From positions 15,500,001-15,564,000 of the forward strand of contig CM069145.1 in the NCBI GenBank assembly GCA_035221665.1: 64,000 nucleotides of DNA, written 5' to 3'. The DNA comes from Okamejei kenojei. Its lineage: Eukaryota. The notes beneath the pieces are model-generated. The model was not told where the DNA came from and ran no database searches. It saw nothing but the letters and a program-made list of their open reading frames with translations. How positions within the stretch are numbered: position 1 is the first letter of the stretch; each line of letters begins with the position of its first letter. Made by a program: the position numbers and the translations under genes. Below are positions 4,007-63,484 of the stretch, in pieces.

Positions 4007-4230
4007 TGTAGAGAAAGGAACTGCAGATGCTGGTCTGCACCAAAGAGAGACACAAAAATCTGGAGTAACACAGTTGGACAGGCAGCATCTCTGGAGAGAA
4101 GGAATGGGTGACGTTTCAGGTCGAGACACTTCTTCAGTCTAACAAAGGGTCTCGACCCGATATGTCAACCATTCCTTCTCTCCAAAGATATTGCCTGTCC
4201 CGCTGAGTTACTCCAGCATTTTGTGTCTTT
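4007..4230. mobile_element. Palindromic Penelope-like pseudo-LTR dimer (inverted arms ~4048-4137 and ~4138-4228)
   Basis: The two arms are imperfect reverse complements, and the left arm has a ~37-nt tail. Flanked by ATAAGTACTATT (3995-4006) and ATAAGAACTATT (4231-4242), a TSD-like repeat. Confidence 0.8.
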
Positions 4231-4871
4231 ATAAGAACTATTCACTGAGGAAAAATATATATCACTGGTAGAATTGTGATTATGATTATGTTTAAACTCT
4301 TCTTTGAACAACGCGAACAAGTTTTATTTTGTTGAATCCAACTGAAGCCAAAAGCAATCTGGTTCAAAAGTGCTTGATAATATTACAGGATGAAAAAACC
4401 TCCCGATGAAAATAAAATAGTTCTATCTTGAACTCTCATCAAAAGATCAGAATAATTTAATATTAATTATTACATCCCCACACCCCCAAGGATCCCCTCC
4501 ATTATTTTGTGTTAATTCCTGAATGTATCGACTCTTTGCTCGAAAACTGCTCCAGGCATTGCTATTACTAACTCAAGTACATTGCTCAAATTGTCATCCT
4601 TCATGTTGGAACATAGAATGCCCAGATAGCTAGCACTGAAGCCAAAAGCAATCTAGTTCACACCTGATATCCACATGGACTTTAGAGCAATGACAATGAG
4701 TATTTTATATTTGTACATCATTACATTAGCTGACTGTTGACCTTTAACTACTGCTGCTATCATGCCAGTTAATATCTGAGGTAGATTTCACACCAGAAGT
4801 ATCCAGTCTCTGGTCAGTGAAACTTTGTAGCTGGATGAGTCACCAGTCTGTGAACAAAACTGGGTCTCTTA

Positions 4872-5176
4872 TTTGTTTTAGTTTTAGAGATACATCGTGG
4901 AAGGATACCCACCGAGTCAGCGCCAACCAGCAATCACCTGTACACTAGTCCTGTCCTATCCTACGTACTAGGGGAAATTTTACAGATGCCAATAAACCTA
5001 CAAACCTGCACCCCTTTGGAATATGGAAGGTAAAGCTGAAGCACCCCCTGGAGAAAACCCATGTGGTCACAGGGAGAATGTACAAACTCCATACAAACGG
5101 CAGCCGCAGTCAGGATTGAACCTGGATGTCTGGTGCTGGAAGGCAGGAACTCAACCGCTGCGCCACTGTGCCGCCC
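4872..5176 (-). mobile_element. tRNA-derived V-SINE (HE1-like)
   Basis: Minus strand starts GGGCGGCACAGTGGCGCAGCGG (A box) ... GGTTCAATCC (B box), has a V-domain-like gtatggagtttgtacattctccc, and a (TAAAA/CTAAA)-type tail. Confidence 0.8.
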
Positions 5177-5196
5177 ATGGGAGTGAAGGATGTAAA

Positions 5197-5399
5197 AGGC
5201 CTGTCCCACTTGACTGACGTATCAGGGTCGCCGAAAGATTTTAAAAAATGTCAAAATCTAACGGCGACAAACAAATGTTGCGACACGTGCGGCGACACCG
5301 CGCATCATTACGTCATCACGCCGCGACTTTTTCGGTGACCGGATATGTCAGTCAATGATGCCGACAGTCGCCGAAAAAGTCGCCAAGTGGGACAGGCCC
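5197..5399. mobile_element. PIF/Harbinger-type MITE
   Basis: Terminal inverted repeats GGCCTGTCCCACTT ... AAGTGGGACAGGCC with internal repeated gtcgcc/ggcgac motifs; TIR related to the MITE at 48154. Confidence 0.75.
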
Positions 5400-5858
5400 T
5401 ACAATTGTGAACGCAGCCCAGACCATCGCACAAACTAACCTCCTTTCCATGGACACCATCTGCACCTCCGCTGCGTCGGCAAGGCCACCAGCATAATCAA
5501 GTCACACCCCGGTCACTCTCTCTTCTTCCCTCTCCATTCGGCAAGAGAATTAGAAGTGTGAAAACATATACCTCCAGATTCAAAACAGTTTCATACCAGC
5601 TATTATCAGGCATCTGAACCATCAACAAAAAAGAGCGGGGCTGAGCTACTATCTACCTCACTGGGAGACACTGAGACTATCATTAATCAAACTTTACTGG
5701 ACTTTATCTTGCACTAAACATCATTTCCTTTATCCTGTAGCTGTACACCTTCGATGGATAAATTATGATCATGCATCATCTTTCCACTGACTGAACAGCA
5801 CCCAATAAAAATCTTTTCACTGTACCTCGATACACATGATAATAAACTAAACTAAACT
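5400..5858 (+). mobile_element. Rex1/Babar-like LINE 3' end
   Basis: Decayed RT C-terminal coding sequence (IVNAAQTI...HPGHSLF..LP) followed by a 3' UTR ending cttttcactgtacctcgatacacatgataataa(ACTAA)n. Confidence 0.6.
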
Positions 5859-8800
5859 ACATGTTGTTGGGGGACCGAGGGAGGAAAACCATAGTGCTGG
5901 GTGCTGGGGACAGTGTTGGGGGTGGTGAACGCAGCAATCCCCACATTGGGTTTCTCGTCTGGTGCACCATTCCACTCATTTCTCAAACCAATAAGTGGAA
6001 CTCGTTATAACATCCTTCACACACTGCCCAGAATAGTCCAAAGGACGCTGTTTCATGTCTTACATGAGGCTTTTGCCTGCCACAGAACTTTTCTGCGTGT
6101 CTATCATTGGCTCAGGGAGAGAAAGCCACGGTTGTGGCAGATTGTGCCCCTCAGCTTTGGTTCTCAAGCCCATTTCTAATCAGAGGCTCTTAGACAAACA
6201 TATTTACATCTCGGTTGTGTAATTTTGCTTGCATTGAGTTTCAGGCATGTTTTTATTAAAGTAATCATTCTTATCAGTTATTCTATTGAAAATGTTAATA
6301 TTCTCAGGGATACCTGTGTATCATACCATGCAAAAGTTGGTATTCAAGTTTGTACCTGCAGATCCTCACCATGAATCTCAGCCATTGATGTTCTGCGGAC
6401 AACAGGACAGAACCCTAAGAATGAGCCAACTAGGCAGATACAGAGCCTCAGTGTCGGAGGCGGGATAGATTCTTCATCTTCCTCTCAAGCATGCCATATT
6501 GTGCAGTAGACCTAAGAAATAGATGAACTACTTATTTTGTTTTATAATAGTAAAAATGACAGATAAAATCGCATGGTGTTCATGTCAAGATGGAAATGCA
6601 GTACTCCAAGGGTTAACAGGAAAGCCTTACAACACATAATCAAAGCTTGACCTCAGGTTAGTTAAGGGGCAATACAATGTAGGGGAGGGGGTGGGATTGG
6701 TAAGGTCTAGTATCTAATAATAAACTAGCAGTCGCTGTAGCAAATCTTGTGTAAAACTGTCTAATCTGATCTTGCCATGTGGTAATTTTCCAGATAAATG
6801 GACAGTCGGTTACACAGTTCCACTGTTCAAGGTCAATGATCCATATAATACAGACAATTACTGAGGTTTTTCATTGCCAGCTCTTTGGGGAAACTTTTTC
6901 ATCAAGTACTGAGCAACAGAAAATAAACATCCTATACAAAGGCAACTATCAATTAAAGAAAATCAAATTGATTGTTAATATATTGATAAGAAGTGCTAAA
7001 TTAAAACACAAAAGAAAGGTAAATATGTTAAGTATACATTTGTAGAAATTTAACATTTTTATGTTTCACTTTCTTCAAAACGTTTCAATGCTATTGAACA
7101 ACAGCTTGTTTTATTAATTACCAGGGCCTGAAATCAATAGCCAGCTCCATAATGCAATTAAAAACATAACAAAAGTCACCCTACGGTAAGATTTTAAAAT
7201 GAGTCACTGCAACACATCCTTAAGATTGATCCCTTGCAATTCACAACGTCACACATTATTTAAATGTGCTATCAATTACTATTAGACTTTATAAACTAAT
7301 AAAACCACAAGTGTTAGGAACTTTTAATTTAAATTGCTTCCTATATGCAAGTAAATGAATACACATTACCCCTAATAAAACAAGGATACATTCCTTGCAA
7401 TGGCATCATTGGTCTAATTTAATGAATAATACCCACTGATATAGTAAGTCATTATTGCTGCCACAAAGCTTTTGTTTTCAGAAACTACATTAACAACAAG
7501 TATCATGCAAAAATAATTTCATCAAATTACAGTTACATTTTTTCACTCTAGGAATGCCATGAAGGCACTAATTATACTGGAGAACTGTTAAAATGTATAT
7601 ATAATCATGCACTAGAGGCTGTCATATTTATCTCCTTAATATTATAAACTTGTAGGAAATAAAATTGGCCACAGATTCAGTATAGTGACAGGTTGGGAAC
7701 AAATATAATTGGCAATAAACATCCAGAATTTTTATTATTAAAATCAATATAAAAGCTTCCAGATATATATTTTTAAATCGGGCTTAAACTCCAAATGTGT
7801 AGGTTAAAATAGACACAGATAATCACACAATTGTAAATAATGTATCAAAATTTGCATATGCTTTTCAGTAATTTAACCTGAATTTCATTGTGATGATAAT
7901 CTAATTTGAAAAGTATGAGGGCTAAGTGTTTCTGTTTCCTTCCCATGGCTGTCAATTAAAGCAGAAGCAACAACATTCTAGTGCTAGATTTACAGAACAC
8001 AACTGACAAAACCCAAATGCATTATCTTTTTCATTTGTGTTAATTTTTTTCAAGTGATATTCCTCAATTTTTGCACCAGATCTATTTTATCTATTAATTT
8101 CCAAATGGGTGGAATTGCTGTTTTTGAGCCCTACTGTTGCTATAATAAAAAAAAAATCTAAATTGAACATTTGGTGGAAGTATTTTAATGCATTTAATGC
8201 AAATATGATATTTTGTCATTAGTGTCGGAGTAATTTCCAGCAGTGCTCAAATAAAGAATAAATTCTAAAATCTCTGTAATTCAATGCAGTTGTATTGGCA
8301 AGAACATCAGCAGCTGTCATAATTTCAAGTAATGCCAACAACATATGTATGTTTTCAGTGAGCAACTCTAGCTGTGTTGGTTGCATGATTGCAAACAGAA
8401 GTGGTAAAGATAGTGCTTGACAAAGTTAAACGATGTGGAAAGATAGAGTTTGGAGTTCATTTAAGAGTAATTTTTAATGGAGAAAATTGGGAGAATAAAA
8501 CAGGCAGAACTGATAAATTATGGTGATTAAAAAGTGAAGCAAATGAAGAAAGATGTATCAAGGGAATCAAATGAAAAGCCAAAGGAATGTAACACAAAGT
8601 TAGAGAATCTGCATTGGAGAATGAAAGAAAACAAAACAAATAGATTTTTTGGGGAATGAAAATGGAAGTACATAGACAGAAAATGCTGGCCCAATAAAAA
8701 AAAAGAAAGTCTAAACAACTACTCGCTCTCTTTATTGGGGGCCCATCTTGAAATTTGTCTAATCTCAAACAGGACAAAGGTCAGAGCGCTATAATCAGTC

Positions 8801-9589
8801 CTTATTCGCTGATGTGGAGAGGGAGTTATTTACCCAGCATTCCACCTCTCTTACAGTGACTCTGGATGGAAACTGGTGAGATGACATCAATTTCCGGGCT
8901 CCATTTATAAATAAATTGTTGATGCTCAAAGGGGGTGACGATCTGAAGGGGGACAACTCTGGGGCATGTCCCATACTCATGCGAATGGGCGTTGTGAGTT
9001 CCTGATGTGGATTCCTACTGTGTATGACTCTCAGGGTTGCCCATACTGTTAGGGACACATTTTGGCTGTCTACAAATCAGGAAGCCACATGTGCTGGTCA
9101 ACGATGCAGGTTCAGGGGGGGGGAGACTTCCTGCCTGCAATGGATGTTATGCTGGTTGGGGGGGGGGGGTTAAATATGTTTTTAATGCTACAGGGATCAA
9201 GGAAAGTATTGTAATTGGACCCCCAAGTTGACAATCCGCAACCAACACTTAGTATCGTCAGGCCTTCATTGATGCAACAAATTGTAGGGGATTCCTGCTG
9301 CTGTCGCCCTCTGATCACTAAAGGCCCATCTGATAAAAGGCCAGAATCCAGGGCTTCAAGTTCAGGTCCAATTTAAGGACCTCCCAGCTCATTCCCACTG
9401 GCCTTACAGAAGCTGTGAGCAGTGAATTATCAGGTCGACATCCCACATTAGGCAGGTCTCATAAACAAGCTAATGAGGTGAAAGAATTGAGCACTAGAGG
9501 AGATAAACACAATTTGAAATAAAGATAAATCTTTGTGATCGATGACCAGATGGAGAAAACAGCTGCCACAAACCTTTATGACTAGCTGT

Positions 9590-9855
9590 GTTTAGTTTAT
9601 TGTCACGTGTACCGAGGTACAGTGAAAAGCTTTTGTTGCGTGCTAACCAGTCAGCAGAAAGATGATATATGATTACCATCGAGCCACCCTGCATTTGGGA
9701 CAGTGAAATGGTCCCAAAGCCTGCTAACTATCACATATGAACTCAGTGGGCTGTTTCTATGCATTATGTGCTCAACTGGGAATTGTACTTATGCATATAA
9801 TCTTACTGATCTGTATAAAAATGCATCTCACTGTACCTTAGTACAAATGATAATA
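9590..9855. mobile_element. Two oppositely oriented Rex-like LINE 3' tail remnants
   Basis: 9590-9690 is the reverse complement of the 5780-5850 tail (tttattgtcacgtgtaccgaggtacagtgaaaagc). ~9760-9855 is a + strand decayed copy (cactgtaccttagtacaaatgataataa). Confidence 0.5.
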
Positions 9856-11303
9856 AGGGAACCATTGAAGATAATTTTTTTTTAAATTTAAAAGTTCTTT
9901 TTTTATTGTTTTACAAAGAGCAAGAATCGATGAAGGATTAGAATCCGCTCACCTTAGCCTGATGGTCCTTCAGCTTATTGATGTGTTTCCCCAAACAACA
10001 AACTGATTTTCATTGGAGTTACCTTTCAATGTTATGTTGAGTTTCATGTTCCTCCTAGCTTAACACTTCCACAACAAATGATTTGAATCTCAGGAGCTAC
10101 TGTGCAAAAATACATAGATGTTCTACCTTACGATTTTTGACTTGTGCACATATTATGCCAAGTTCATTGTATAGCAGATTTTGAGACTGCCTATCTAGGT
10201 GTCACTTTATGTTTCAGGAACGGAAATGTTAACACATTCAAACTAAGTTCCAGTAGATGGCAGTCTCACAGAATTTAAGTGATGTGCCGTTATTATGCAT
10301 GTGATGATTCTCAATTACAGCAATCTGTCGATAACTTTGCGTATAAAAATTAGTTCAATTTAAACTTTTAAAACAAACTATTCCCCAACATGTAGCCATG
10401 ATAAATTAATTTCCCCATTAAAACAAGTCAAAGAAAATAAAATGTTTTTAATTCTTTATCGGAATATTGAAATGAAGTTAAATGTTAAAGGCGTTATAAG
10501 GTGTTTTTCAATTCTTGGGATGTATTTAAAGATTGTTTAAATATTAAATGCAAAAACACATCTCATCCACTCAAAACACATTATTCTTTAAATGCTTTAA
10601 GCACTCAACAGAAATGTTAAAACCTTTGTCTGAAAATTGGGCTATTTATTTAGTTGCTGTGTAAGCAGCTTTTCTCAGGCGTTTTAGCAGTTTAGGAAAT
10701 AAAAGTGAGGGTGGTTACATACACATAACAGCTATGGGAATTAGACAATTCACTTGGTCATTTGCCCAACAGCTTTGTACATAATATGTAATAGCCCCCT
10801 TACTGACCCAACATCTGCTGAGTGAAGAATCACTCCCTTTAAAATACTCAAATTTTCTCTTGTTCTTTCCAGTGAGAAAGAAAATAACCCACATGAATAC
10901 CTTTGTTTCTCCCCACTAACTACTAGGATTGTTTTTACAGTAGATCTTTATCAGATATGAAATATAACATACACCAGTCAAAGGTTCCTGCGTTTAAACA
11001 ACCTTATGTAAAATGCTACCTAAAAATGGGAAAAGGAGTTAATTGAAAAGCACATTTTAGTGGCTGCTGTTTTAATAACAACACATACTTAACTAATTTG
11101 AACATTTATACAAATCTGCATCATATAACTATGAGTAATTATTAAAAGCTGTGTTCACGTATTAGGTATTCAATAGTGATTTAAAAACAATTTATTATAA
11201 TTTTCATTTTTTAACGAAGGAAGCAAATTGCCATTGAAGAATGTTAAGTTGAGTTTATTGCCCTATGCACATGTATTGGCAAGGTAAATGTACAATGACA
11301 AGC

Positions 11304-11432
11304 TTTAAAGAAGGAACTGCAGATGCTGGAGAATCGAGGGTACACAAAAAGCTGGAGAAACTCAGCGGGTGCAGCAGCATCTATGGAGTGAAGGAGATAG
11401 GCGACGTTTCAGGTCGAGACCCTTCTTCAGAC
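11304..11432 (-). mobile_element. Penelope-like pseudo-LTR solo copy with hammerhead motif
   Basis: Near-identical to 56090-56218. Minus strand reads CTGAAGA-A-GGGT-CTCG-ACCT-GAAA-CGTC at 11430-11403. Confidence 0.85.
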
Positions 11433-11643
11433 CCTTGCTTGCAGCAGTATCACAGGCACTTCGTTTCTGACAACACACAGAACAAACAAGACATCAGTGC
11501 AAGTCCAAAGTAGTGCAAGTCATGATCCGTAATGTTCAGTTGCTCAAGTAAGATTAGGGTTGTGCAGAATGGTTCACTAACTGATGGCCTGAGGAAAGTA
11601 GCTGTTTCTGACCCTGGTTTATTTTAGTTTAGTTTAGTTTAGA

Positions 11644-11697
11644 GGGGTGGAAGATTGCAACCTTCATGTGGTCCGCCCTGTTTCGACTAATGCAATT
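11644..11697 (+). ncRNA. HDV-like self-cleaving ribozyme (minimal nested double pseudoknot)
   Basis: P1 GGGGTGG (11644-50) / CCGCCCT (11673-79) with G1-U wobble; P2 (G)ATTGCA (11653/4-59) / TGCAAT(T) (11691-96/7); P3 ACC/GGT; L3 TTCATGT; mini-P4 with TTCG loop; J4/2 CTAA with putative catalytic C at 11687. Confidence 0.75.
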
Positions 11698-11785
11698 AAC
11701 TCGATGTGCACAAACAGAAGGTCAAATAGAACACGTTGTCCTACAACTTTAGGTTGTGCACGCCACACGAAAGAAGAAGAAGAAG
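11644..11785 (+). mobile_element. Short non-autonomous retroelement with HDV-like ribozyme head and (GAA)n tail (possibly Ingi/Vingi- or RTE-mobilised)
   Basis: TSD GTTTAGA(G) at 11637-11643/4 and 11786-11792/3; (AAG)n tail at ~11771-11785; structured 5' end. Confidence 0.8.
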
Positions 11786-12220
11786 GTTTAGAGATACAGC
11801 GCGGAAACAGGCGCTTTGGCCCACCGAGTCCGCACCAACCAGCAACCCCTGCGCATTAACACTACCCTACACACACTAGAGACAATTTACAATAATACCA
11901 AGCCAATTAACCTACAAACGTGTACGTCTTTGGAGTGTGGGAGGAAACCGAAGATCTCTGAGAAAATCCACGTGGTCAATGGGAGAACGTACAAACTCCG
12001 TACAGACAGCACCCGTAGCCAGGATCAAACCCGGGTCTCTAGCACTGCAAGAGCTGTAAGTTAGCAACTCTACCGCTGCTTCGCTGCCCACACCGTGATG
12101 TGGGACCTCAGGCCCAATTTTTACAATGAGAAGTGAGCATGGCGTGGATAGAAGGAATCCATAATGTTTTGAAATGACAATGATTGTTATTCGATGACAA
12201 TTCTGATAAATTTGATAAAT

Positions 12221-12698
12221 AATTGGTATTGGTTTATTTTGTCACATGAACTGAGATACAGAAAAAAAAACTTTATTTGTGTGCTAGCCAGTCAAATTAT
12301 TCTATGCATGAGTACAACCACGTCATACATAATTGCATCAGATAGTGCAAAGAGAAAAAGTGCAAATCATATTGATATGAGCATTTAATGCTATAACTAA
12401 AGTTATAAGTGCAGATTTAAGAAAAGGTGAAAAGGTTGCATTGAAGTAGCTTGGAGGATTGGGACAACATCCTTAGCTGATGAGAGAACTATTCAGTAGT
12501 CTGATGACAGCATGGAAGAAGCTGTTCCTGAATTTGTTAGTATGTGCTTTCAAGCTTGTGTATCTTTTGCTCGACAGGAGGAAGAAGAAGGAATGACTGG
12601 GGCGTAAATGGCCCTTACTTATTTTGGCTGCTTTCCCGAGGCAGTGTGGAGTGTAGGTGGAGTCATTGGAAGGAATGCTTGGTTTGTGTGATGGGCTG
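12221..12698 (-). mobile_element. Rex1/Babar-like LINE 3' end, degraded
   Basis: Reverse-complement similarity to 5400-5858 (gaagctgttcctgaat..., ttggtttgtgtgatgggctg; tail ggtttattttgtcacatg). Confidence 0.55.
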
Positions 12699-14071
12699 TA
12701 CGAAAATTAAAATTCGGATAAAATGGAGAACTATTTGAAATTTTCCATAACAATAAGAAGAAATTTCATGTGTGTCAAATATTATTATATCTGTTTCACT
12801 ATCTTTAAGTAGATTTTGTTTTAAGTAAAATAATTCAGTAATTCAATTCTCCTTTGTCTTTGTACATGTGCTAAACAATCCTGAAATAAAGCGTGGTATT
12901 GCTTAGTAGAAATGTCACTTGCACTTGGCATTATTAAGACAAAGTGGTTTTAACACCACCCTTGATAAAGTGCTTTCCTGCCACAGGTGGCTTTTCTATT
13001 CTTAGCATGTTAATCCCAGCCTGATCAAAAACCAGCACAAGTTATATATTGTGGTGTAATGTCAAGCCCAAAACATCTGAAATTAATTATTATTTCTTTA
13101 GAAAAATGATAGTCGGTAATTGAATGGATGACACAAGTGTTCTTGGTTTAACGCTAAAACTAATATTCTGTTTTATTTGATGGTTATGCTGTTTTCACTT
13201 TGGAAAAATAAAACACAGAAGCTGGAAATTTGAAATTTAAGCAAAAAGAAGCGGAAAATACACCACAGGTCAGACAACAGTTATTGTATTTTTATAGATA
13301 GTAAACCTACTTCGGAAGGGAGATTAAGGCATCTGCTTTTACATCAGTTAAAATTAAATATCAGGTGCAGGCAGTCAACACATGGTCCAGGGTATGTGAT
13401 CTCAGAAGCGCAACTGTTGGTACATTCAAAGCTTTCAGGTGACTCTCGCACCTGTCAAAAGTCAAGGGTTAGGTGTGTTAAAGATGTTAATCAAAATCCC
13501 AATTCAAGAAATTTGGTCACCAACTAGTTGCCACTCCTGCCCTGTTCTTGGTCTACTTTGGCTTCTCTTGATAACAGTATGGGCTGTTGATGGGTCAGGC
13601 TGACCCCTCTCTTGTTAGCTTCACCATACACTACTGCCTCTATCCAAGCATCTCCCTCTCCCTATCAAACCATCCGAACCCCAGAACCTGAAGCTGCATC
13701 TGTTTCTCAAGGCTCTTTTTGTAGCAAAAGGAAGCTCAAGGCTTACGTTTGAATATGTCTAAGGCCAATATCTACACACTGGTGATTCTGCTTTAATGAT
13801 TACTTCATAGCACCTTGTGACAATAAATATATTTCTCAGTGAAACAGATCTTTGAGATAGGAAAAACATATTACCGTGAAAATTGTAACAGACACAGATT
13901 AAATATACAGATTTTGTTTATTTAATAAACTAAAAATTGCTGATTAAAATATGGTATGAAACTAAAGACAAATATATCTTTAAAAAGACAGACCATAGCC
14001 AGAGGTGAAATGAAAAATTAAAAACGTAAAATTATATCAGATGTGTTGCACAAATGCAAATGGATTCTAAA

Positions 14072-14438
14072 AGTGTGTAAGAAGGAACTGTTGATGCTGG
14101 TTTAAACCAAAGATAGACACAAAAAGCTGGAGTAACTCAGCAGGACAGGCATCATCTCTGGAGAGAAGGAAAGGGTGATGTTTTGGGTCAATACCCTTCT
14201 TCGGACTGGTTAGGGATAAGGAAAACAAGAGATATAGACGATGTGGAGAAATAAAGAACAACGAATGAAAGATATGCAAAAAATTAACGATGATAAAGCA
14301 AGCGGGCCATTTTAAGCTGTTTGTTGGATGAAAATGAGAAACTAGTGCGGCTTAAATGTGGTAGGGATAGAGAGAGAGGGAATGCCAGAGCTACCTGAAG
14401 TGAGAGAAATCGATATTGATACCACTGCCCAAGCGAAA
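14072..14438 (-). mobile_element. Penelope-like element 3' end with degenerate hammerhead motif
   Basis: Aligns to the tail, pseudo-LTR and 3' UTR of 55351-55740. The hammerhead core is mutated (minus strand CCGAAGA...CAAAACATC). Confidence 0.8.
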
Positions 14439-17400: not shown

Positions 17401-17823
17401 CTTTAAAGGAAAATCTGTCTAGTGTCTAATTATCCATGAAAGGTAAGCGATGTTCTAGATTTCACACTACCTTGACATGCCATAACAGTCTCAGTTATAG
17501 GTTATAGTCAGATGCGCTCTCTTTATTTTCCGTTTAAACATCCCTTTCGGTGTTATTTGGTATAATTCACATTTAGTTCGTAAAAACGTTACCAGCAGCG
17601 CATAAGGCGTTTTCAATGTTTCTGCAAAATAATTTGTTTGAACACGTCCATTAAATAATGAATTTACCGATTATTATACATTGATGCATGTTTGCATTTC
17701 ATGGATATGTATTACAGATATGTGTTATGTGTTTATAACGGATAATATTAATATACAATAAATTACATGTTGCAACTTTTTCGAATTTTTCATTCTAGTG
17801 TTTCTTAATTCTTAATTTTCATT

Positions 17824-18347
17824 CCTAATTTGAGGAAGGACATCCTTGCTATCAAGGGAGTGGACGTCGGTTCACGAGGTTAATCCCCGGGTTGGCGGGA
17901 CTGTCAAACGAGGAAAGATTGGAAAGACTGGGCTTGTATTCACTGGAATTCAGAAGGATCAGAGGATATTTTATAGAAACATATAAAATTATAAAAGGAC
18001 CGGACAAGCTAGATGCAGGAAAAATGTTCCCAATGTTGGGGGAGTCCAAAACCAGTGGCCACAGTCTAAGAATAAAGGGGAGGCCATTTAAAATTGAGAT
18101 GAGAAAAAAAAACTTTTTCACCCAGAGAGTTGTGAATTTGTGGAATTCTCTGCCACAGAAGGCAGTAGAGGCCAATTCACTGGATGAATTTAAAAGAGAG
18201 TTGGATAGAGCTCTAGGGGGCTAGCGGAATCAAGGGATATGAGGAGAAGGCAGGCATGGGTTACTGATTGTGGATGATCAGCCATGATCACAATGAATGG
18301 CGATGCGGGCACGAAGGGCGAAATGTTCTATTTTCTATGTGTTCTAT
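17824..18347 (+). mobile_element. CR1-clade LINE 3' fragment
   Basis: ORF 17892-18224 contains ERLERLGLYSLEFRRIRGYFIETYKI...FFTQRVVNLWNSLP, followed by a 3' UTR and (TTCTAT)-type tail. Confidence 0.9.
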
Positions 18348-24300: not shown

Positions 24301-25418
24301 AATCTTATTACTTTCAATCGCCATAAAATATGATTTTATTATACTTACGTATTTAATTAGACGCCAGCAATGTAATGGATTTTGAAATCGGAATAGCAAC
24401 AGCTTTGATAATTCACTTATCTGTCGCAATAGTCATTAACCCCCAACACCAGAAAATAGATTGCTCTAACACATCTCTTTCTCACCCTCAGCGGACTATT
24501 GAAATTCAAGTGTTATGGTGTCCCCAGATAACAGAATTCGGACTTCGATTTTCACCGATTAATTAAAATATTAGCGTACATACTGTGCCAATTGTCAAAT
24601 AAAGGATGGCAGTGCTAATACGAACGAAGAGAAGGAGCTGATTATTGAGTAAGTGACTATCCCTGATTCTCTCCCACCAGCCAGGGTTCTTACCTTTAGT
24701 TATAAAAAAAAGCAGAGGGCAGGCTCCGTCCCCAGGGTCCCCTCTTCTGGGCACTAGCTAATATCTCTGAAAGGCTAGTTTTAGTCAACAAAAATCTAGT
24801 TAGAAATACATGTGGATCTTCAGGAATTCCCGGTGATCGCATATCTTCATACTGTATCATCTACCTTCAGATCGTCGTGTAGATTCACAGCCGTTATTGC
24901 GGCCCCTTATATTGTTAATATAAAATGTACCTCGGAATTTGGATATTGATTCAATGGACATTCCGAGATCTTTAACCCATAATTGATTATGTGATCACAT
25001 GGATAGGAAAAATGTTTATAATACGCCACTTTACACACAACAAACTACAGAAAGAAGACACGTCGTTTGATAAGAACGTGTGTTTTAAATAAACACTAAA
25101 GACACCCCTCTCCTCAACACGGACATAAACATGCACATGCACACACTTACACGCATAGAGACACACAAAATTCAGGTTTGTAATTAATTTGTCAGGTAGC
25201 TTCAATGTAGGGTTGTATTGATTTTCTGGCCATATATTGCACTGTCCAGCAACCATTTGTAGCCAAGGCCAGTCAAGGCACATTCTCCACGCGTTAGTTT
25301 ATAAGTTTAAGTGCACACTTCATCCGCAAGTTCTCGCTTTTGATCAGAGTGTGTTTCAAGTAACAACTTTTACCCCTTTAATTTATGTTTGAAGAAAACA
25401 ATTCGCATCCGCCGTGTG

Positions 25419-25425
<7 letters not shown>

Positions 25426-55054: not shown

Positions 55055-55340
55055 GACATAGTTTTCAGGTGAGAGGGGAAAGATTTAATACGAATCAGAG
55101 TGGCAACTTTTTTCCACACAGAGGGTGGTGGGTATACAGAATGAGCTGCCAGAGGAGGCAGTTGAGGCAGAAACTATAACAATATTTAAAAAACATTTGA
55201 ACAGATATCAGGATAGGAAAGGTTCTGAGAGATATGGGCCAAACGCGCGAGGGGTGGTGGGACTAGTGTAGATGGGCATCTTGGTTGGCATGGGCAAGCT
55301 GGGCCCAAGGGCCTGTTTCCATGCTGTATGACTCAATGAC
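55055..55340 (+). mobile_element. CR1 LINE 3' end
   Basis: aggtgagaggggaaagattt...gagggtggtgggtata...gagctgccagaggagg...ctgtatgactcaatgact tail. Confidence 0.8.
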
Positions 55341-55416
55341 TTGTATGAAAAGGGTACACAAAAGGCTGGAGAAACTCAGCGGGTGCAGCAGCATCTAAGG
55401 AGCGAAGGAGATAGGC

Positions 55417-55444
55417 GACGTTTCGGGTCGAGACCCTTCTTCAG
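55417..55444 (-). ncRNA. Minimal type I hammerhead ribozyme motif
   Basis: Minus strand CTGAAGA-A-GGGT-CTCG-ACCC-GAAA-CGTC: intact CUGANGA and GAAA boxes, palindromic ACGU stem III, GUC triplet; stem I weak. Confidence 0.65.
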
Positions 55445-55679
55445 ACTGGTCGGGGATCAGGGAAACAAGAGATATAGACGGTGATGTGGAGCGATAAAGA
55501 ACAATGAATGAAAGATATGCAAAAAAGTATCGATGATAAAGGGAACAAGCCATTGTAAGCTGTTTGTGGTGTGAAAATGAGATGCTGGTGCGACTAGGGT
55601 GGGGGAGATAGAGAGAGAGAAAGGGAATGCCAGGGCCCGAGGGCTGAGGGAGAGGTGGGAAGGGGAGGAGACAGCAAGG

Positions 55680-56084
55680 GTTAACAGAATTGAGAAAATT
55701 CAATGTTCAAGCCCAAAGGATGCAGACTCCCCAAGCGGAATATGAGGTGTTATTCCTCCAACTTGCAGTGTTGCTCACTCTGGCCGTGGAGGAGGCCCAG
55801 GACCGAGAGGTCGGATATACGGAATGGGAGGGGGAGTTGATGAGCTGAGCCACCGGGAGGTCGGGTTGGTTTTTGCGGACCGAGCGGAGGTGTTCGGCGA
55901 AACGATCGCCAAGCCTCCGCTTGGTCTCACCAATATAGATCATCTGGCATCTGGAGCAGCGGATGCAGTAGATGAGGTTGGAGGAGGTGCAGGTGAACCT
56001 CTGTCGGACCTGGAAGGACTGCTTGGGTCCCTGAAAGGAGTGGAGGGGGGAGGTGAAGGGACAAGTGTAGCATTTCTTGCGGTT
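55680..56084 (-). pseudogene. GIY-YIG endonuclease fragment of a Penelope-like element (frameshifted)
   Basis: NRKKCYTC...NLIYCIRCSRCQMIYIGETKRRLGDRFAEHLRSV: LIY...CxxC...YIG motif, conserved R and H, upstream Cys cluster. Frameshift near 55815; the frame continues with a premature stop into HLIFRLGSLHPLGLNIEF. Confidence 0.9.
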
Positions 56085-56091
56085 GACCAGT

Positions 56092-56119
56092 CTGAAGAAG
56101 GGTCTCGACCCGAAACGTC
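56092..56119 (+). ncRNA. Minimal type I hammerhead ribozyme motif
   Basis: CTGAAGA (56092-98) A GGGT-CTCG-ACCC GAAA (56112-15) CGTC (56116-19). Confidence 0.65.
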
Positions 56120-57367
56120 GCCTATCTCCTTCGCTCCTTAGATGCTGCTGCACCCGCTGAGTTTCTCCAGCCTTTTGTGTACCCTCGATTCTCCAGCATC
56201 TGCAGTTCCTTCTTTAACAATTGTATGAGAAGATTGTTCTTGCCATGAGGATTGACTGGTTTGTGCAGGGTAGCTGCTGCATGCAATGTGCATAAATTAT
56301 GACCAGACATTGTGGGTGGTCAGATTGGACCATTTCTGGAAAAACAATGCCAGTAGGAACAAGTGAGGAATAAGATAGGTAAAGTATCATGAATAACTGG
56401 TTGGGTGGTGAGTACGGAGCTCTTATTCACATCCACCATGGCCACCAGCCAAGCAGGACTAAATGCTGATGTGGTGTGACATCCCTTGCATTGATTTTAG
56501 CTCTTGGAGTATATAGTGTTGATTCGCTGCAGAAATACAGAACAAATAGCTGACTTAGAGTCATTTGTGAGCCCACATGGGGAAAGCACAACTGTAAAGC
56601 AGACTTGGAACAGTGAAAAAGAGTTAACTTTTTGTTTGGAGGATCTTTGTGCCAAAATCATGTCATATCCTTCCTCAGGTCTAGCATCTGTTCTATAGCA
56701 TGTAGTTTCCCTTAATGCACTCTAGCAGAAAGGACACCTGCCAAGACCCTCCCTAATCTCAAGTAATCTGGTGAGTCACCCACAGGCAAAGTGCGGGTGT
56801 ACACTCTAGGATTGTAGGTCTTCAGATACAGTGCATGTCAGTAAAACAAATTAACTGTTCATTTGTCATGCATAAATGGGACTCCAGAAAATGTGGAGCT
56901 GCATTTGAAAAACAGGGCAACCAATCTTTATGTTCTCGACACCAAATATTACCAAAATGGCATTGATATTGTACAAGAATGAACCTGTCAGCCTGATTTT
57001 CTTGAAGAGGACAAAATTAGCTGACAAACCTTTCTGTAATTTGCAAATGACGTCGTAAATTCATTCATATAAAGTAAAACGGATCGTTCGGGAAAAATCC
57101 TCGCACCAAATTGAATATGTTCCTGTGAATTATTGGAATGCGATCTTAATCAGAGCCACAACCATTCCCATTGGTGCTGGTGGGATAGGAAAGGAGTCCA
57201 TAACTCCTTCTTTCTTTCCAATCCCCGGTATTGGAATTTTTTCAAGATTAATTTTTGGGTGAGAATAGGATTGAATCTGACAAAAATGGCCCAGAGTGAA
57301 ATAATCTCATGAGAATCCCTGTCCATGTTCAAACATTAAATATTGACATTTTCAGTAAAGTAACAGA

Positions 57368-57670
57368 AGGGTGGCATAGTGGCAGTGGAACAGCTAGTGG
57401 AACTGCTGCCTCACACCACCAGAGGTTGAATCTGTCTGTGTGGAGTTTGCACATATTTGGGACCATATGGATTTCTCTAGGTTTTCTGGTTTTCTCCAAC
57501 ATTCCAAAGATCTTGTGTGGCAGGTTAATTGTCCCCAGTGTGTGTAGGTGAGCAGTAAGTCTGGAAGGACTTGATGAAAATGTGGGGAGAACAAGAAGTG
57601 GGATCAGCGTAAATGGGTGGTTGATGTTCGGCACAGACGGAAGGGCCTATTTCCGCATATCACTGATGTT
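57368..57670 (+). mobile_element. Degraded V-SINE
   Basis: gggtggcatagtggc head; V-domain tgtctgtgtggagtttgcac; LINE-like tail gaagggcctatttccg. Confidence 0.65.
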
Positions 57671-60624
57671 TATGGAACATCATCCCAGCATAAGTTATTA
57701 CTTCCAGGAGAAGGGGTAAACATGGTACATGTCTTTGTATCTCAGAAAAATGACATGTCTGTTTCTATTATATGTAAGGGAGCCCTGTGGTTCGGTTTCA
57801 GGATTTTAAAATGCACTACCCACAGAAAGGAAAAGGAAGGTGCCCTTACCTTCAGCAGTCTGCGATGCTTCTTAATGTCTGAACTGATGCGAATCACTGG
57901 TATGATGACATATCACTGCACTCATATGCCTTGAATGCATGTATGGCTTGATTTTGATACTCTGGTTCTGCCAGACCAGAGCGAATCCAACTTGAAACAT
58001 AAATACAACATTACTTCATGACAGTTATGAAATAGAAGGAAGATCAACTATGGATCAACAAATTTGATGTGATTTTGATTTGCAGTTTAGAGGGGCACAG
58101 TATGTTTAGAGAATTGTGGCTGAACCTATGAGCCAGGAAGTTAAACTTCACTTTAATAGTTCACTTTATGTCCCCTGTTTTTATGTGATGGATTAATTTC
58201 TACTATTAACACACAAGACCGCAGGAAGGTGATGTACTCCGGCTGTAGTCTATTTTCTCCAGCATCTTTCCTGTTCAGATTAAACTCCTGATGTTTTATG
58301 ATTGGATGGTTAAGTGTATAAAGTAAATGTAATTATCTGCTTGGGATTTGATAGCTATCAACAAGTCTGAATTAGAAATTCCTAACCACTCCTCGTCTCA
58401 CTAAAAAAACATAATGGCTATAAATGGACCTTTAATTAGAAAGTCAAAAATAAGTAGAACAAGCTTTTCTGTTTAAAGATATTCATATTACAAATAGCTT
58501 ACATATTTTAAATAGTAGCGACAGAAAGAAATCTGGAGTAGAATTTTGCCATAAGCATGCATTGATTAAGTAGTCAGTAGGTATGTTGAAAATGATTTAT
58601 TTAAGATTCAGTACTCTTTTGTTTTGCCACATGATAGCAGCGTTAAAAATAGTCAGAATAATTGAGACCATCATTCTGCAAGAAAATAATGCATTTGTTT
58701 GTAAGTGGAGAGCTGCAAAAAGGCTGTGAAAAATAGATTGGGGATAATTGGGTTATCAGATGTAGACGCTGCAGGGAATTGAACATTATCTGCTCTAAAT
58801 GTTAGAACTGGTGGGGGTCACTTCTGTAACTCTCCAGCTTCAGTTCTTCCTGCATCTGAAGGAATCCAGACAGTATAAAATGTGTTTTTACTGCCTGCTA
58901 CCCCAAGTATCTCCATTCCTCTGCCCTTCAACAGGTTGACTTTATGAGCCATGACCACACTAAATAAAATCTTGCATTGCTTTCTCCCCATTGATTCACC
59001 AGACTTTAATTGCTTGGAACACAAGCCAGATCCTCTGCTTCAAGTGTGTTTCCCTTAGCTTCAGCTGCTGTTATTCATTTCTATTAGACAACTTCTAACT
59101 AAGGTATTGACTTGCACTTTGACACAGACATTGCTACTGTGTTTGATTGCACTGTTAATTTAAAAATCTTCCCGAACAACGTTTTAAACCATTTAACATT
59201 ATGGTAAAACTGTGTTTGTGGTATTATTAATTTATACTATTCTCCCAAGGTTAAGATAATGCAGCAGTAATTCATTATTCGGGGGGGAAAAAGAACTTAG
59301 TAGGTAATTTAGAACTGAATTAAGGAAATACGGATTTTATTTGTCTTCTGTCCCAAATATTCCACCAAATCTCAAGCCCTATTCATCATAAGCAGAGATT
59401 TTCTTTGATTGAAAATGACTCATTAATTAGGTTTTTCCTGAAGGGAATTGAGTTAAAAAGACAAATTTATTTCTTATTTTGGTGGATGGGCATGACCCCT
59501 GTGACCTTCACAATGTTTGAGTTTAGATTAATTGATAATCTCCTTTCTTAGTTACACAAGCTAATCTCTGTAATGAGCAGAAACATAAAATGTGTTTTTA
59601 AAAATACTTGCATAAATGACTGCGGTTAACACTCATCAATTTCATCCAGATTTTACTAAATTCTGGGATTTTTACAGAATGTTAGTATAAATGTGCTGGG
59701 AAGGCAGGACAAATTCTTATTGTTAATTTTTCCGTAACAGATCAAATGGTTAACACATACACCCTGGAGAATTTCCAACCTGCCTACAATATGTTTTTGT
59801 AGAGTTGTGTTCGTTCTCCATAGTTCTGGTGCGAACATTTCTGGTCAATTGTAAAACTGATGGAAATGCAGATTAACCAATACCCTCCAGCTGAACACAG
59901 GACTAATATTAATTAATTAAATTTGACCATGTTAGGTCTTCGTTGACTTAGCTCGCCTGGAATTCATTTATAGCACAATGTTAAAGGGGAAAGAAACACT
60001 TGATCCATAATCCATAAATCAATTACAATTGATATTTTGAACAAAGAGAAAAAACCTATAATGCCCTTTAGGATTTTATTTAATCCGTCCCTATAAGCAG
60101 AACCTATAATTTAAACATATGCTCCATCATGAACAGAAAAATTGATAAAATAAGCAAACTTAAAATATATTATTTTCAAATACCTTTATTGATGCAAAAA
60201 TGCTCATTTTGCATCCAGTTTTAAGTGTTGTTGGAGAACTGGATCTAAGCACTTCAAATCCAGCATTTGTGATTTGGAACCATGATCTCATTCCATTCAC
60301 TATTAAAGGCATCATTTGGCGCCATTCCCAGGGCAATCCGTGGGAAGGTACCAAGTGATGATCTTGCTACAGCTGTGTGGAGTAGATTAGAGCTAAAATA
60401 AATGACCAATGGAATTACCAGCTAAATGAGTGAAGCTCAATTTTAGATCAGTATAGTTGAGTCCGTAGTGAAGAGAACCTCAATTTAGCACTGGGTTTAA
60501 ACATGCAATTTGACATTGCAATCTGAGATCTGCCTTTTGCTTGAAATCCTTGAGTGGGATAAATCTCAGAGAAAAGAAAGGGAAAATAGAAATAATATTT
60601 TCATTGACAGAAGAACTGTATTTA

Positions 60625-60970
60625 AATAAGAACGTAAGAAATTGGAACAAGAGCAGGCAATGCAGCCCCTTGAGCCTTTTCCAATATGTGCTGTATCACC
60701 AATCTTCTACTTTAGCACCATTTTTCAACATTATTCCCATGTCTCTTAATTCCCTCAAAGCTCAGAAACCTATTGATCTCTCTTTTGATTGAACAAAATG
60801 ACTGAGCTCACACAACTGTAGAGGGTAGAACATTCCAAAGATTCACCACCTTCTATGTGAAGAAAGTCCTCTTCATTTAAGTCCTAAATGCTGTAGGTTC
60901 TTGACTCTTCAGCCAAGGGGAAACCATAATCCACTTGTATCTACGGTGTCAAGGCCTTTAAGAGTTTGAT
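60625..60970 (-). mobile_element. Old CR1 LINE 3' end
   Basis: ataagaacgtaagaaattggaacaagagcaggc tail; ttccaaagattcaccacc...gtgaagaaa motif. Confidence 0.6.
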
Positions 60971-61569
60971 AGCTTTTTAGTTTCTCATATTTTTTTCACT
61001 TTCCATATCCTAGTACTTGGTCCTGGTAAAGGGAAAAATCTGAGTTTTATGCTGGGATCCCTAATATATTTAACATGCTTTCATCATCTAGATTCAGCAA
61101 CGCAATTCAAATTGGTCACATATGTCTACCACGACAAATAAGAAAAAGTTGGTGATCTGGATGGAATAGGCAGAGGTCAATAGCAGTAGACACTGAATAT
61201 TTATATACAGATAGCCGTCATTCAAACAGACCATAATGGGGGGAGGTCCGTTATTGCCGATTGTGCACTATAAACGAGCAAGGGTTTTTGTGCCCTATTG
61301 TCTTCACTGCCCAGGAGGGGTGTCAGAATCCACGAGCCCCGTCCCAATGGGACTTCCCGCACCACACCGAGCACAGTAGCCCAAGAAGGCCGCCCAGCAC
61401 CACCTTGTCCAGCACAGCTGGGGAACGGCAATAACCTCTGCCACTGTTGCTGAATCACACATTCAGAGATTGAGGGCAAAGTGGGAGGTCCACAGTGTTG
61501 GTGCGGTGGGTGAGGAAACCTTGTTCTGCTCTAAGTGAGACTCCCTCAACCAACTGCCCACCCAGAGTT

Positions 61570-61675
61570 CAGGGTGAAAGGACATTGAATTTAAACGTTA
61601 ATCCCGTTTCCCCTTCCAAAGTCACTGCCTAACCTGCTGAGTGTTTCCAGATCTTCCTAATTTTAGTTCAGGATC
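61570..61675 (+). mobile_element. Older Penelope-like pseudo-LTR relative
   Basis: tgaaaggacattgaatttaaacgttaat...ctgcctaacctgctgagtgtttccag has the same layout as the younger family, with a decayed hammerhead. Confidence 0.45.
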
Positions 61676-61881
61676 CATTCTATTTCTCTGACTCTGGGAT
61701 TATGTGGTCCCTATCCATTCCGGGATCACTGATCATATCCCATGGAAAATGTTCTTCTCTGATCCCACTATTGAAAGTGAGGTTATAACAGATATTGTCT
61801 GCTGTAACTGAAATCCGTTATAAAGAAGTCCATAATAACGAGGGTTGACTGTGTCACTGTAAAAGGAAAAAAAAAGGCACA

Positions 61882-63311
61882 CAGTGCCCTCCATAATGTT
61901 TGGGACAAAGACCCATCATTTATCTATTTGCCTCTGTACTCCACAATTTGAGATTTGTAATAGAAAAAAATCACATTGTTAAAGTGCACATTGTTGGATT
62001 TTAATAAAGGGTATTTTTATACATTTTGGTTTCACCATGTAGAAATTACAGCAGTGTTTATACATATTCCCCCCATTTCAGGGCACCATAATGTTTGGGA
62101 CACAGCAATGTCATGTAAATGTTTAGCATTTTGTTGCATATCCTTTGCATGCAATGACTGCTTGAAGTCTGCGATTCATGGACATCACCAGTTGCTGGGT
62201 GTCTTCTCTGGTGATGCTCTGCCAGGCCTGCATTGCAGCCATCTTTAGCTTATGCTTGTTTTGGGGACTAGTCCCCTTCATTTGTCTCTTCAGCATATAA
62301 AAGGCATGCTCAATTGGGTTCAGATCGGGTGATTGACTTGGCCACTCAAGAATAGACCATTTTTTAGCTTTGAATAAACTCCTTTGTTGCTTTAGCAGTA
62401 TGTTTGGAATCATTGTCTTGCTATGGAATGAACTGCCGGCCAATGAGTTTTGAGGCATTTGTTTGAACTTGAGCAGATAGGATGTGTCTATACCCTTCAG
62501 AATTTATTATGCTACTACCATCAGCAGTTGTATCATCAATGAGGATAAGTGAGCCAGTACCTTCAGTAGCCATACATGCCCAGGCCGTAACACCCCCACC
62601 ACCATGTTTCACAGATGAGGTGGCATGCTTTGGATCTTGGGCAGTTCCTTCTCGCTTCCATTCTTTGCTCTTGCCATCACTCTGACATAAATTGATCTTC
62701 ATCTCATCTGTCGACAAAACCTTTTTCCAGAACTGTGGTTGCTCTTTTAAGTACTTCTTGGCAAACTATAACCTGGCCATCCTATTTTTGCGGCTAATTA
62801 GTAAGCTCACCAGTGCTCTGTTTCTTCTTAATGATGTTCCAAACAGTTGATTTTGGTAAGCCTGGGGTTTGGCTGATGTCTTTAACTGTTTTATTCTTGT
62901 TTCTCAGTCTCATAATGGCTTTAACTTTCATTAGCACAACTTTGGTCGTCATGTTGGTAAACAGCAATAAAAGTTTCCAAAGGTGATGGAAAGACTGGAG
63001 GAAAGACTAGGTGCTGAGAGCTCTCTTATACCTGCATTAAGGAAGCCATTAAACACACCTGAGCAATTACAAACACCTGTGAAGCCATGTGTCCCAAACA
63101 TTATGGTGCCCTGAAATGGGGGAGACTAGGTATCAACAATGCTGTAATTTCCACATGGTGAAACCAAAATGTATAAAAATGGCCTTTAATAAAATCTGAC
63201 TGTGCACTTTAACCACATGCGATTTTTTTCTATTACAAATCTCAAATTTTGCAATACAGAGGCAAATAAATAAATGATGGGTCTTTGTCCCAAACATTAG
63301 GGAGGGCACTG
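61882..63311 (-). mobile_element. Tc1-family DNA transposon (IR/DR type), defective transposase
   Basis: ~223-bp TIRs (61882-62104 and 63088-63311) starting CAGTGCCCTCC, with repeated CCATAATGTTTGGGAC; TA on the right flank (CA on the left). Frameshifted transposase with TDEMKINL, VKHGGGGVTAW, QDNDSKH and WPSQSPDLNPIEH (DDE) motifs. Confidence 0.95.
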
Positions 63312-63351
63312 TATGTGCTCCATTTTGATTATACAGGGTCTGAATGTATTT

Positions 63352-63484
63352 GAGTAGGAAGGAACTGCAGATGATGATTATTACAAGAGATGGACACGAA
63401 ATGCTGTAGCAACTCGGCAGGTCAGGCAACATCTCTGGAGAAAAGGACCAGATGATGCTTCAGGTCTGAACATTCTTCAGACTC
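63352..63484 (-). mobile_element. Penelope-like pseudo-LTR, degenerate
   Basis: ggaaggaactgcagatg tail ... catctctggagaaaagg ... ttcttcagac. Confidence 0.7.

What the first reader, a model, noticed from the sequence alone, without database searches (positions are those of the whole stretch)
4007..63484. Dispersed family of ~100-135-bp hammerhead-bearing Penelope pseudo-LTRs behaving like SINEs
Seen: about 11 copies of a unit beginning CTGAAGA-A-GGGT-(C/T)TCG-(A/G)CCC-GAAA-CGTC (4110/4138, 11403, 14176, 44639, 50140, 50836, 51487, 54204, 55417, 56092, 63455). Solo copies start within a few nt of the CUGANGA box, and several have 7-12-bp TSDs (TCAAAAT, TAAGGGGAA, TTCATTGAA, AGGATCTACA), so they inserted as independent short units. 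Stem II variants often keep pairing (ACCC to GCCC with a UUCG loop; ACCC to ACCT as G-U). Known: Penelope-like elements carry minimal type I hammerheads with palindromic stem III that are thought to act as dimers. Inference: a retrozyme-like, high-copy ribozyme system in this genome. Several copies are in sense orientation in EBF3 intron 6, and most of those have core mutations. Caveat: stem I is only 2-4 bp, so activity is uncertain.
Basis: partly seen in the sequence, partly recalled or inferred. Interest (0 to 1): 0.7.

Follow-up and report, generated by a model that had tools for sequence, protein, structure and literature searches.

The report
Solo ends of a Penelope-like retrotransposon
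These short repeats are the ribozyme-bearing terminal repeat of a Penelope-like jumping gene, present in an estimated million copies, and their unusually sharp front edge likely marks where the element's capped RNA begins, not where its ribozyme would cut, so they are probably by-products of the parent element rather than a separate ribozyme system.

Summary
The copies and all four TSDs are real (13 copies in the window). The unit is the pseudo-LTR of an endonuclease-bearing Penelope-like element. Window 55351-56232 is a 5'-truncated copy with a GIY-YIG end and an inverted arm, and full ~3.9-kb units exist elsewhere. Its CX4CX2C linker points to Neptune, not Poseidon. The exact 28-nt hammerhead occurs 48,215 times genome-wide. 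5' ends pile up from -6 to +1 of CUGAAGA (137 of 217 copies reaching there; replicated 57 of 94), not at the cleavage site. At tandem junctions an extra G precedes the start in 26 of 28 cases, the known signature of a reverse-transcribed cap. Best reading: RT starts at the two internal sites (about +95 and +130) of the RNA's 5' repeat and runs off at a capped start on YCAGT, like an integrated strong-stop DNA. Against this, 192 of 279 ORF-leading repeats carry upstream 3'UTR. The retrozyme reading fails: copies are dispersed, ends miss the cleavage site, no solo-only lineage appeared, and sense-strand depletion in introns did not replicate. The hammerhead is invariant across subfamilies but decays neutrally after insertion. 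Its activity is untested.

The parts
2233..2301 (+). Old pLTR remnant with upstream 3'UTR-like sequence; hammerhead part missing
4007..4140 (-). pLTR arm with tail, starts at -3; head-to-head with the next arm
   Evidence: 12-bp TSD (1 mismatch) at 3995-4006 and 4231-4242
4137..4230 (+). pLTR arm, short form, core mutated
11303..11432 (-). Young solo with tail, starts at -2; CpG change in stem II; no TSD found
14068..14391 (-). 5'-truncated copy: about 180 nt of 3'UTR plus pLTR with tail; core mutated
   Evidence: (D7, D18)
26690..32545 (+). Exons of an EBF/COE-family gene (context); the long intron follows, next exon at C15:15607486
44635..44731 (+). Solo, short form, starts at -4; stem II U-G variant; cleavage triplet lost; TSD TCAAAAT
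50139..50229 (+). Old solo; TSD TAAGGGGAA with 15-nt filler
50836..50926 (+). Solo starting at +1; TSD TTCATTGAA overlaps both ends
51486..51565 (+). Degraded solo starting at about +5, with an internal deletion
54203..54297 (+). Solo, short form; GAAA box mutated; TSD AGGATCTACA with 6-nt filler
55351..56084 (-). 5'-truncated PLE: C-terminal linker and GIY-YIG endonuclease (55737-56084 open, then frameshifted), 3'UTR, pLTR with intact hammerhead at 55444-55417
   Evidence: translation; Pfam GIY-YIG E=1.5e-4, 22.4 bits, just under the 22.6 cut-off
56084..56220 (+). Inverted pLTR arm of the same insertion, starts at -8, intact hammerhead 56092-56119, with tail; 12-bp TSD (1 mismatch) at 55341-55352 and 56221-56232
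   Evidence: (I3)
63347..63483 (-). Old solo with tail, core degraded

Best explanation
The repeats are pseudo-LTRs of an endonuclease-bearing, Neptune-type Penelope-like retrotransposon, and the solo copies are likely run-off cDNAs that end at the capped 5' end of the element's RNA, a few bases before the hammerhead. Shown: identity with the PLE; fixed 3' ends at about +95 and +130; 5' ends concentrated at -6..+1; TSDs; an extra G before the start at tandem junctions. Inferred: transcription starts on the conserved YCAGT motif, mostly at the A at -3. The element's RT, primed from a genomic nick, starts at one of the two internal sites in the 5' repeat and copies 100-135 nt to the cap, adding a C opposite the cap G. 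The short cDNA is then joined to the target (solo), joined head-to-head to a second run-off primed from the other strand (inverted pairs), or re-primed (short tandems and possibly the partial-tandem pLTRs). The hammerhead would sit 3 nt behind the cap with a 2-bp helix I. It is kept by selection in active lineages, does not define the template used for insertion, and decays neutrally in inserted copies.
For: PLE identity: RT, CX4CX2C linker, CCHH GIY-YIG and DKG motif; 110 RT/GIY-YIG-type relatives at E<=1e-30 among 2293 candidates; pLTR-ORF-pLTR units of about 3.9 kb in L081, L083, L092. 3' ends at two sites about 35 nt apart, as for the two RT start sites and the tail in PMC11167929. 5' hot spot: 137 of 217 copies reaching -6..+1 start there, 0.117 per nt against 0.004-0.010 far from it (0.018-0.035 in adjacent bins); independent set 57 of 94. 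The simulation control inflates this bin only twofold (41 vs 21) and miscalls 6 of 102 extended copies. Genome-wide, only 27,125 of 48,215 exact cores keep the native four upstream bases. Extra G, hand count of the first 100 of 441 tandem junctions: non-native base before AGTCTG is G 26, A 2, T 0; before CAGTCTG G 10, A 2. The same G fillers appear in another organism's run (table 5c). An extra G at full-length L1 5' junctions is attributed to the cap (PMC11702581, one passage). ORF-leading repeats also start at the hot spot (27 of 40 examined). Solos share all common haplotypes with 3'UTR-bearing copies (5 of 6 haplotypes among 117 young copies). No peak at the cleavage site (+25..+32: 26 of 335 and 6 of 177), in line with uncleaved RNA being the template in vitro (PMC11167929).
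Against: 192 of 279 ORF-leading pLTRs carry native upstream 3'UTR, and all 4 full-length units I read do. A start at -3 alone cannot give these; they need a strand transfer to the 3' repeat or longer read-through RNAs, neither shown. At ordinary genomic junctions the G excess is modest (G 38, A 41, T 21 of 100; about 25 G expected from flank composition). An RT can add an untemplated C without a cap. The same spot looks like a 3' splice site (80% pyrimidines at -40..-5, then CAG), and in Drosophila Penelope the intron ends at helix I with the start site about 120 nt upstream (PMC4209133, PMC2377424). Starts spread over about 8 nt. No RNA ends could be seen: all 24 runs listed were contigs.
Confidence: 0.65

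Rival explanations
1. Solos are themselves source elements. Each carries the start motif and both RT start sites, so if the promoter is internal they are transcribed and re-copied by the PLE protein as Pol II SINE-like units. This is compatible with the run-off chemistry but changes where most templates come from.
For: Solos and inverted arms outnumber 3'UTR-bearing copies (217 starts at -8..+2 vs 86 extended among 610). ORF-leading repeats are few (279 in the young family) against 48,215 exact cores of all subfamilies. Penelope has an internal promoter (PMC2377424, passages).
Against: Every sizeable sequence cluster holds both solos and extended copies (chi-square p 0.18-0.24; one cluster of 7 had no extended copy). 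No common solo-only haplotype among 117 young copies. Both tests have low power.
Confidence: 0.15
2. The boundary is a 3' splice site or a protein/RNA roadblock at the 5' foot of the hammerhead, where RT stalls on a longer RNA.
For: Pyrimidine tract and AG-poor zone before a CAG conserved across very different 3'UTRs. The Drosophila Penelope intron ends at helix I (PMC4209133). It explains why most ORF-leading repeats have upstream sequence.
Against: None of the listed joints landing at the site skips a GT..AG stretch (lists were cut). No shared upstream exon was seen in solos. Distant TSDs that would mark carried exons are rare (4 of 58 vs 1 of 57 control). A stall inside a template does not predict the extra G.
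Confidence: 0.12
3. One reading: a retrozyme-like system in which hammerhead cleavage and circular RNAs generate the units.
For: The hammerhead block is invariant across subfamily consensuses. There are 441 short tandem junctions and a few arrays, periods 49, 218 and 485. Four of 100 junctions join GUC directly to AGU.
Against: Units start 30 nt before, and end 70-100 nt after, the cleavage site. Only 9 of 610 start at +27..+29. Copies are dispersed. Helix I is 2 bp, and the minimum-energy fold does not form the hammerhead. About 10% of sampled hits have an intact motif (50 of 500). Strand depletion did not replicate.
Confidence: 0.04
4. Solos arise at DNA level by recombination between the two repeats of full elements, or by random 5' truncation.
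For: PLEs are mostly 5'-truncated; recombination was suggested for TSD-less solos in Adineta (PMC3846280, passage).
Against: Upstream repeats of full units include 50-290 nt of 3'UTR, which recombination would leave in the solo. The truncation rate is 10-25 times higher in an 8-nt window than far from it.
Confidence: 0.03

Closest known systems
[quoted passage not shown]
   Same: CUGANGA, extra base before G10.1-C11.1, palindromic AACGU with no helix III loop, mostly single dispersed motifs; a 2-bp helix I as in Drosophila virilis Penelope.
   Different: Copy number is far higher (48,215 exact vs about 4,000-9,000 motifs reported for coelacanth and Xenopus). The motif is uniform across subfamilies, and helix II is only 4 bp. 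That paper gives no breakpoint map in the parts I read.
Poseidon element of Anolis, PAc (Frangieh et al. 2024, PMC11167929)
   Same: Two 3' end sites with an optional tail, both-strand insertion geometry, no ends at the hammerhead cleavage site.
   Different: This element has the CX2-5CxxC linker (Neptune-type), and its ATG lies about 35 nt after the tail rather than inside the hammerhead. The fixed 5' boundary with an extra G is not described in the parts I read.
Non-LTR retrozymes of animals (PMC7229834; bioRxiv 10.64898/2026.07.22.740005)
   Same: PLE-pLTR-related, non-coding, type I hammerhead, dispersed monomers exist.
   Different: Retrozymes are defined as tandem repeats, typically 170-400 nt with canonical hammerheads and circular RNAs. 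Here units are 100-135 nt, dispersed or head-to-head, with a minimal hammerhead near the 5' end.
Minus-strand strong-stop DNA of LTR elements (recalled, no paper read)
   Same: Works like it: a short cDNA from an internal start near the RNA 5' end to the cap, able in principle to transfer to the 3' repeat.
   Different: Here it would be primed by nicked genomic DNA and be integrated as it is.
Solo pLTRs and inverted pLTRs of Adineta vaga PLEs (PMC3846280)
   Same: Solo pLTRs, head-to-head inversions with palindromic junctions, cis-acting pLTR.
   Different: Few copies there, read as recombination or self-priming; here an estimated million, with TSDs and a fixed 5' edge.

Membership tests
EN+ Penelope-like elements | Single ORF with RT and C-terminal GIY-YIG endonuclease with CCHH motif | tested here: met
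   (Pfam GIY-YIG just under cut-off)
EN+ Penelope-like elements | Partial-tandem pLTRs, inverted 5' copies, optional 30-40-bp tail, variable TSD | tested here: met
EN+ Penelope-like elements | Minimal type I hammerhead motif in the pLTR | tested here: met
   sequence vs descriptor in PMC4209133; Rfam finds no hammerhead
Neptune clade | CX2-5CxxC linker between RT and EN | tested here: met
   CX4CX2C; criterion from PMC8557442; Nematis also has such a linker
Neptune clade | RT phylogeny groups with Neptune | not tested
   no named reference sequences were at hand
Penelope/Poseidon clade | Linker Zn-finger absent | tested here: not met
Non-LTR retrozymes | Tandem arrays of hammerhead-bearing monomers | tested here: not met
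   0 close same-strand pairs among 40 perfect cores in 1.39 Mb; 441 short tandem junctions vs 48,215 cores; a few small arrays exist
Non-LTR retrozymes | Canonical hammerhead (6-bp helix I, short helix III) | tested here: not met
   helix I 2 bp, no loop 3
Non-LTR retrozymes | Unit ends set by cleavage | tested here: not met
   no ends at +28
Non-LTR retrozymes | Circular monomer RNAs and self-cleavage | not testable with these tools
   only assembled contigs were available
SINE (non-autonomous lineage with its own source copies) | Subfamilies that amplify independently of the partner element | tested here: inconclusive
   none found, low power
SINE (classical) | tRNA/7SL/5S-derived Pol III head | tested here: not met
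   no Rfam match over any copy at E<=1; the head is the PLE pLTR

The most novel reading that the evidence does not exclude
Neptune elements make a strong-stop-like cDNA from their capped 5' repeat. Failed transfers litter the genome with about a million promoter-bearing solos that can be re-copied as Pol II SINEs, and successful transfers to the 3' repeat build the pseudo-LTR. The hammerhead, 3 nt behind the cap, is a protein-triggered self-decapping switch that shuts off the element's own mRNA rather than shaping the template.
Probability: 0.2. Interest if true: 0.75.

Novelty: new variant of a known kind. Interest (0 to 1): 0.45.

Why it matters
How Penelope-like elements form their pseudo-LTRs and inverted ends, where their RNA starts, and what their hammerhead does are open questions (PMC8557442 and PMC11167929 say so). 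This genome gives a very large natural read-out. It points to a base-level start site, argues that cleaved RNA is not the insertion template in vivo, and predicts that cleavage would remove the cap with a 31-nt leader. One CAGE library and one in vitro RT assay test this. The family is also large: an estimated 1.07 million hits of roughly 100 nt (0.84-1.31 million by bootstrap), a few per cent of the genome. It is not a new ribozyme class or a retrozyme system.

Tried and rejected
Rfam scan: no hammerhead hit. Apparent in-frame TGA in most N-terminal hits: an artefact of a frameshifted query, not selenocysteine. Poseidon assignment: dropped because of the linker motif. Sense-strand depletion of intact cores: p=0.012 in EBF introns by one definition, but p=0.32 and 0.075 by two others, and not replicated (one-sided p=0.72; pooled p=0.077). 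The replication set was 350 kb of the 800 kb planned. Core conservation after insertion: 4.8% vs 6.3% mismatch, but equal to the conserved 3' blocks (5.0%), so not selection. First clustering was driven by alignment gaps and was redone. Back-splicing circle from the AG|GTATGC site in the ORF leader: none of the six leader-to-hammerhead junctions among 40 loci uses it. RNA runs: contigs only, so no RNA start, end or circle could be read; RNA contigs of X5 and X7 cover the 3'UTR and pLTR but DNA carry-over is not excluded. Folding: no significant stability (z 0.25 to -1.5). PDB: no relative of the RT-EN. Metagenome contigs: no relative. Earlier scan notes: none on this family. Literature searches returned no paper whose listing or read passages describe a capped-start boundary for solo pLTRs; the library lacks most subscription papers and Repbase/Dfam were not searched.
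Full report
Positions are counted from the C of CUGAAGA (0); the predicted cleavage site is between +27 and +28.

Observation. The window is C15:15500001-15564000 of a 2.76-Gb genome. Thirteen copies of the unit lie in it. The exact 28-nt motif occurs 48,215 times genome-wide, the reversed control 0 times. A profile HMM gave 507 hits in 1.04 Mb, 170 of them in 44 evenly spaced 10-kb stretches. This extrapolates to about 1.07 million hits including fragments (bootstrap 0.84-1.31 million).

Identity. Window 55351-56084 on the minus strand encodes the end of a PLE protein (CX4CX2C linker, then a CCHH-type GIY-YIG), followed by a 3'UTR and the unit; an inverted copy of the unit sits at its 5' end. 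Longer copies extend into RT. The 416-aa fragment has 110 longer relatives at E<=1e-30, most with RT and some with GIY-YIG Pfam marks. L081, L083 and L092 are complete pLTR-ORF-pLTR units of about 3.9 kb, with the first ATG about 35 nt after the tail. By the criteria in PMC8557442 (passages) the linker excludes Penelope/Poseidon and fits Neptune or Nematis. I built no tree.

Ends. 3' ends fall at two sites, about +95 and +130. This matches the two internal RT start sites and the tail of the Anolis element (PMC11167929, parts 1-2 of 4 read). 5' ends were mapped for 399 of 500 hits that passed length and identity filters. Of 217 copies reaching -6..+1, 137 start there: 0.117 per nt, against 0.004-0.010 far from it and 0.018-0.035 in the adjacent bins. 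An independent 350 kb gave 57 of 94 (211 of 256 hits used). Simulated uniform truncations inflate the bin twofold, not tenfold. Exact counts agree: of 48,215 cores, 27,125 keep the native CAGT, 5,806 change at -4, 6,796 at -3, and 8,488 by subtraction at -2 or -1; part of this is mutation. There is no excess at the cleavage site (26 of 335 and 6 of 177 in +25..+32; 9 of 610 at +27..+29). TSDs of 7-16 bp flank solos (31 of 78 vs 4.8% control). 227 of 610 copies are arms of head-to-head pairs.

What sets the 5' edge. Upstream of -5 the subfamilies have unrelated pyrimidine-rich 3'UTRs; only YCAGT is shared. It matches the Pol II initiator consensus (recalled) and also looks like a splice acceptor. 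The discriminating result is. Among the first 100 of 441 short tandem junctions, where both neighbours are known sequence, the non-native base before AGTCTG is G in 26, A in 2 and T in none; before CAGTCTG it is G in 10 and A in 2 (hand count; two of the 26 could be templated; six rows are repeats from two arrays). The upstream copy there is C/T-rich, so G is not expected. A run from another organism shows the same G fillers. An extra 5' G is the cap signature of full-length L1 insertions (PMC11702581, one passage). At ordinary genomic junctions the excess is weaker (38 G of 100), as expected if end-joining trims it. The listed joints into this site are not GT..AG. I conclude that the cDNA usually ends at a template end, probably a cap.

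The main difficulty. Of 279 young-family repeats followed by the ORF leader, 192 have native upstream sequence. Of 73 selected for a non-native base at -25, I read 40, and 27 start at 0..-6, so roughly a fifth of ORF-leading repeats start at the hot spot. The majority needs either transfer of the run-off cDNA to the 3' repeat or longer read-through RNAs. Neither was shown.

The ribozyme. The motif fits the minimal hammerhead of PMC4209133 (parts 1-2 of 4 read), with helix I of 2 bp (U-A or U-G, and G-C). If the RNA starts at -3 there is no room for more. None of the 28 positions differs among six subfamily consensuses, against 14 of the next 61 (p=0.004). So the block is under selection in source elements, though a promoter or protein-binding role would give the same pattern. 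In inserted copies G12 and the palindromic CG are mutated in about 20% each (CpG), and pair-breaking changes are as common as pair-keeping ones; 50 of 500 hits keep an intact motif. Published minimal hammerheads cleave poorly and only as dimers or with protein (PMC4209133, PMC11167929), and 8 of 9 Xenopus dimers did not cleave (bioRxiv 2026.07.22.740005, parts 1-3 of 5 read). Activity here is untested.

Intron orientation. In four EBF long introns all copies were balanced (163 sense, 154 antisense), and intact cores were fewer in sense (13/82 vs 23/67, p=0.012); other definitions gave p=0.32 and 0.075. A test fixed in advance (note) on two teneurin introns gave 13/52 vs 11/50. The claim is not supported.

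Retrozyme and SINE readings. Retrozymes are tandem arrays with canonical hammerheads and circular RNAs (PMC7229834, passages). Here tandems are under 1% of cores, though a 49-nt array of at least six units and 218-485-nt repeats exist and could seed true retrozymes. Solos behave like SINEs in size, TSDs and number, but I found no solo-only lineage, so the simplest source is the parent element's RNA.

Other papers: PMC2377424 and PMC3846280 (passages), PMC11371274 (passages, not informative). No supplements were read; those of PMC11167929 show genomic and RNA end coverage and could already show a similar 5' edge.

Verdict. A known kind of element in very high copy number, with a sharp, probably cap-defined 5' boundary that I did not find described. 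Interest 0.45.

Noticed in passing
G000:C2:52296734-52296972: Array of at least six 49-nt units, each with a complete hammerhead motif; the natural candidate for cis-dimer cleavage and for the birth of a retrozyme.
   Followed up: no
G000:C5:32949051-32949436; C7:91770643-91771767; C3:91927170-91927611; C7:49398752-49399201: Short tandem repeats (periods 218, 485, 298, 296) of pLTR plus ORF leader, in the retrozyme size range.
   Followed up: partly
genome-wide: In short tandem junctions the upstream copy mostly ends at +30..+34, just past helix I and 33-38 nt from the proposed start; unexplained (paused short RNAs, or aborted second-strand synthesis).
   Followed up: no
window 56089-56227: The 5' GAAGAAGG can pair with the tail's CCUUCUU, closing the whole long unit into one hairpin; z only -1.5.
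   Followed up: partly
sample: Inverted arms have secondary start peaks at +10 and +15/16, inside the stem II palindrome, suggesting fold-back priming.
   Followed up: no
window 44635-44731 and cluster 5 of K=8: A subfamily with cleavage triplet GUU and, in some copies, a U-G pair with UUCG loop in stem II.
   Followed up: partly
window 48150-48447: 90-nt inverted arms, 91% complementary, 118 nt apart; MITE-like (I7).
   Followed up: no
window 61857-63336: Nested inverted repeats (120 and 78 nt) around about 1 kb; possible DNA transposon with terminal inverted repeats (I2 and I14).
   Followed up: no
window 3348-63974 (families D8-D17): Several other dispersed repeat families, probably LINE 3' ends and SINEs (names recalled, not tested).
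   Followed up: no
L036:4623-5663 (+): 347-aa open frame that looks like a Tc1/mariner transposase, 1.6 kb upstream of a PLE copy (family by eye).
   Followed up: no
G000:C3:4261808-4262014 (-); C1:194440661 and 194465781: Inverted duplicate of a teneurin exon and a duplicated EBF exon hit; local duplications or assembly features.
   Followed up: no
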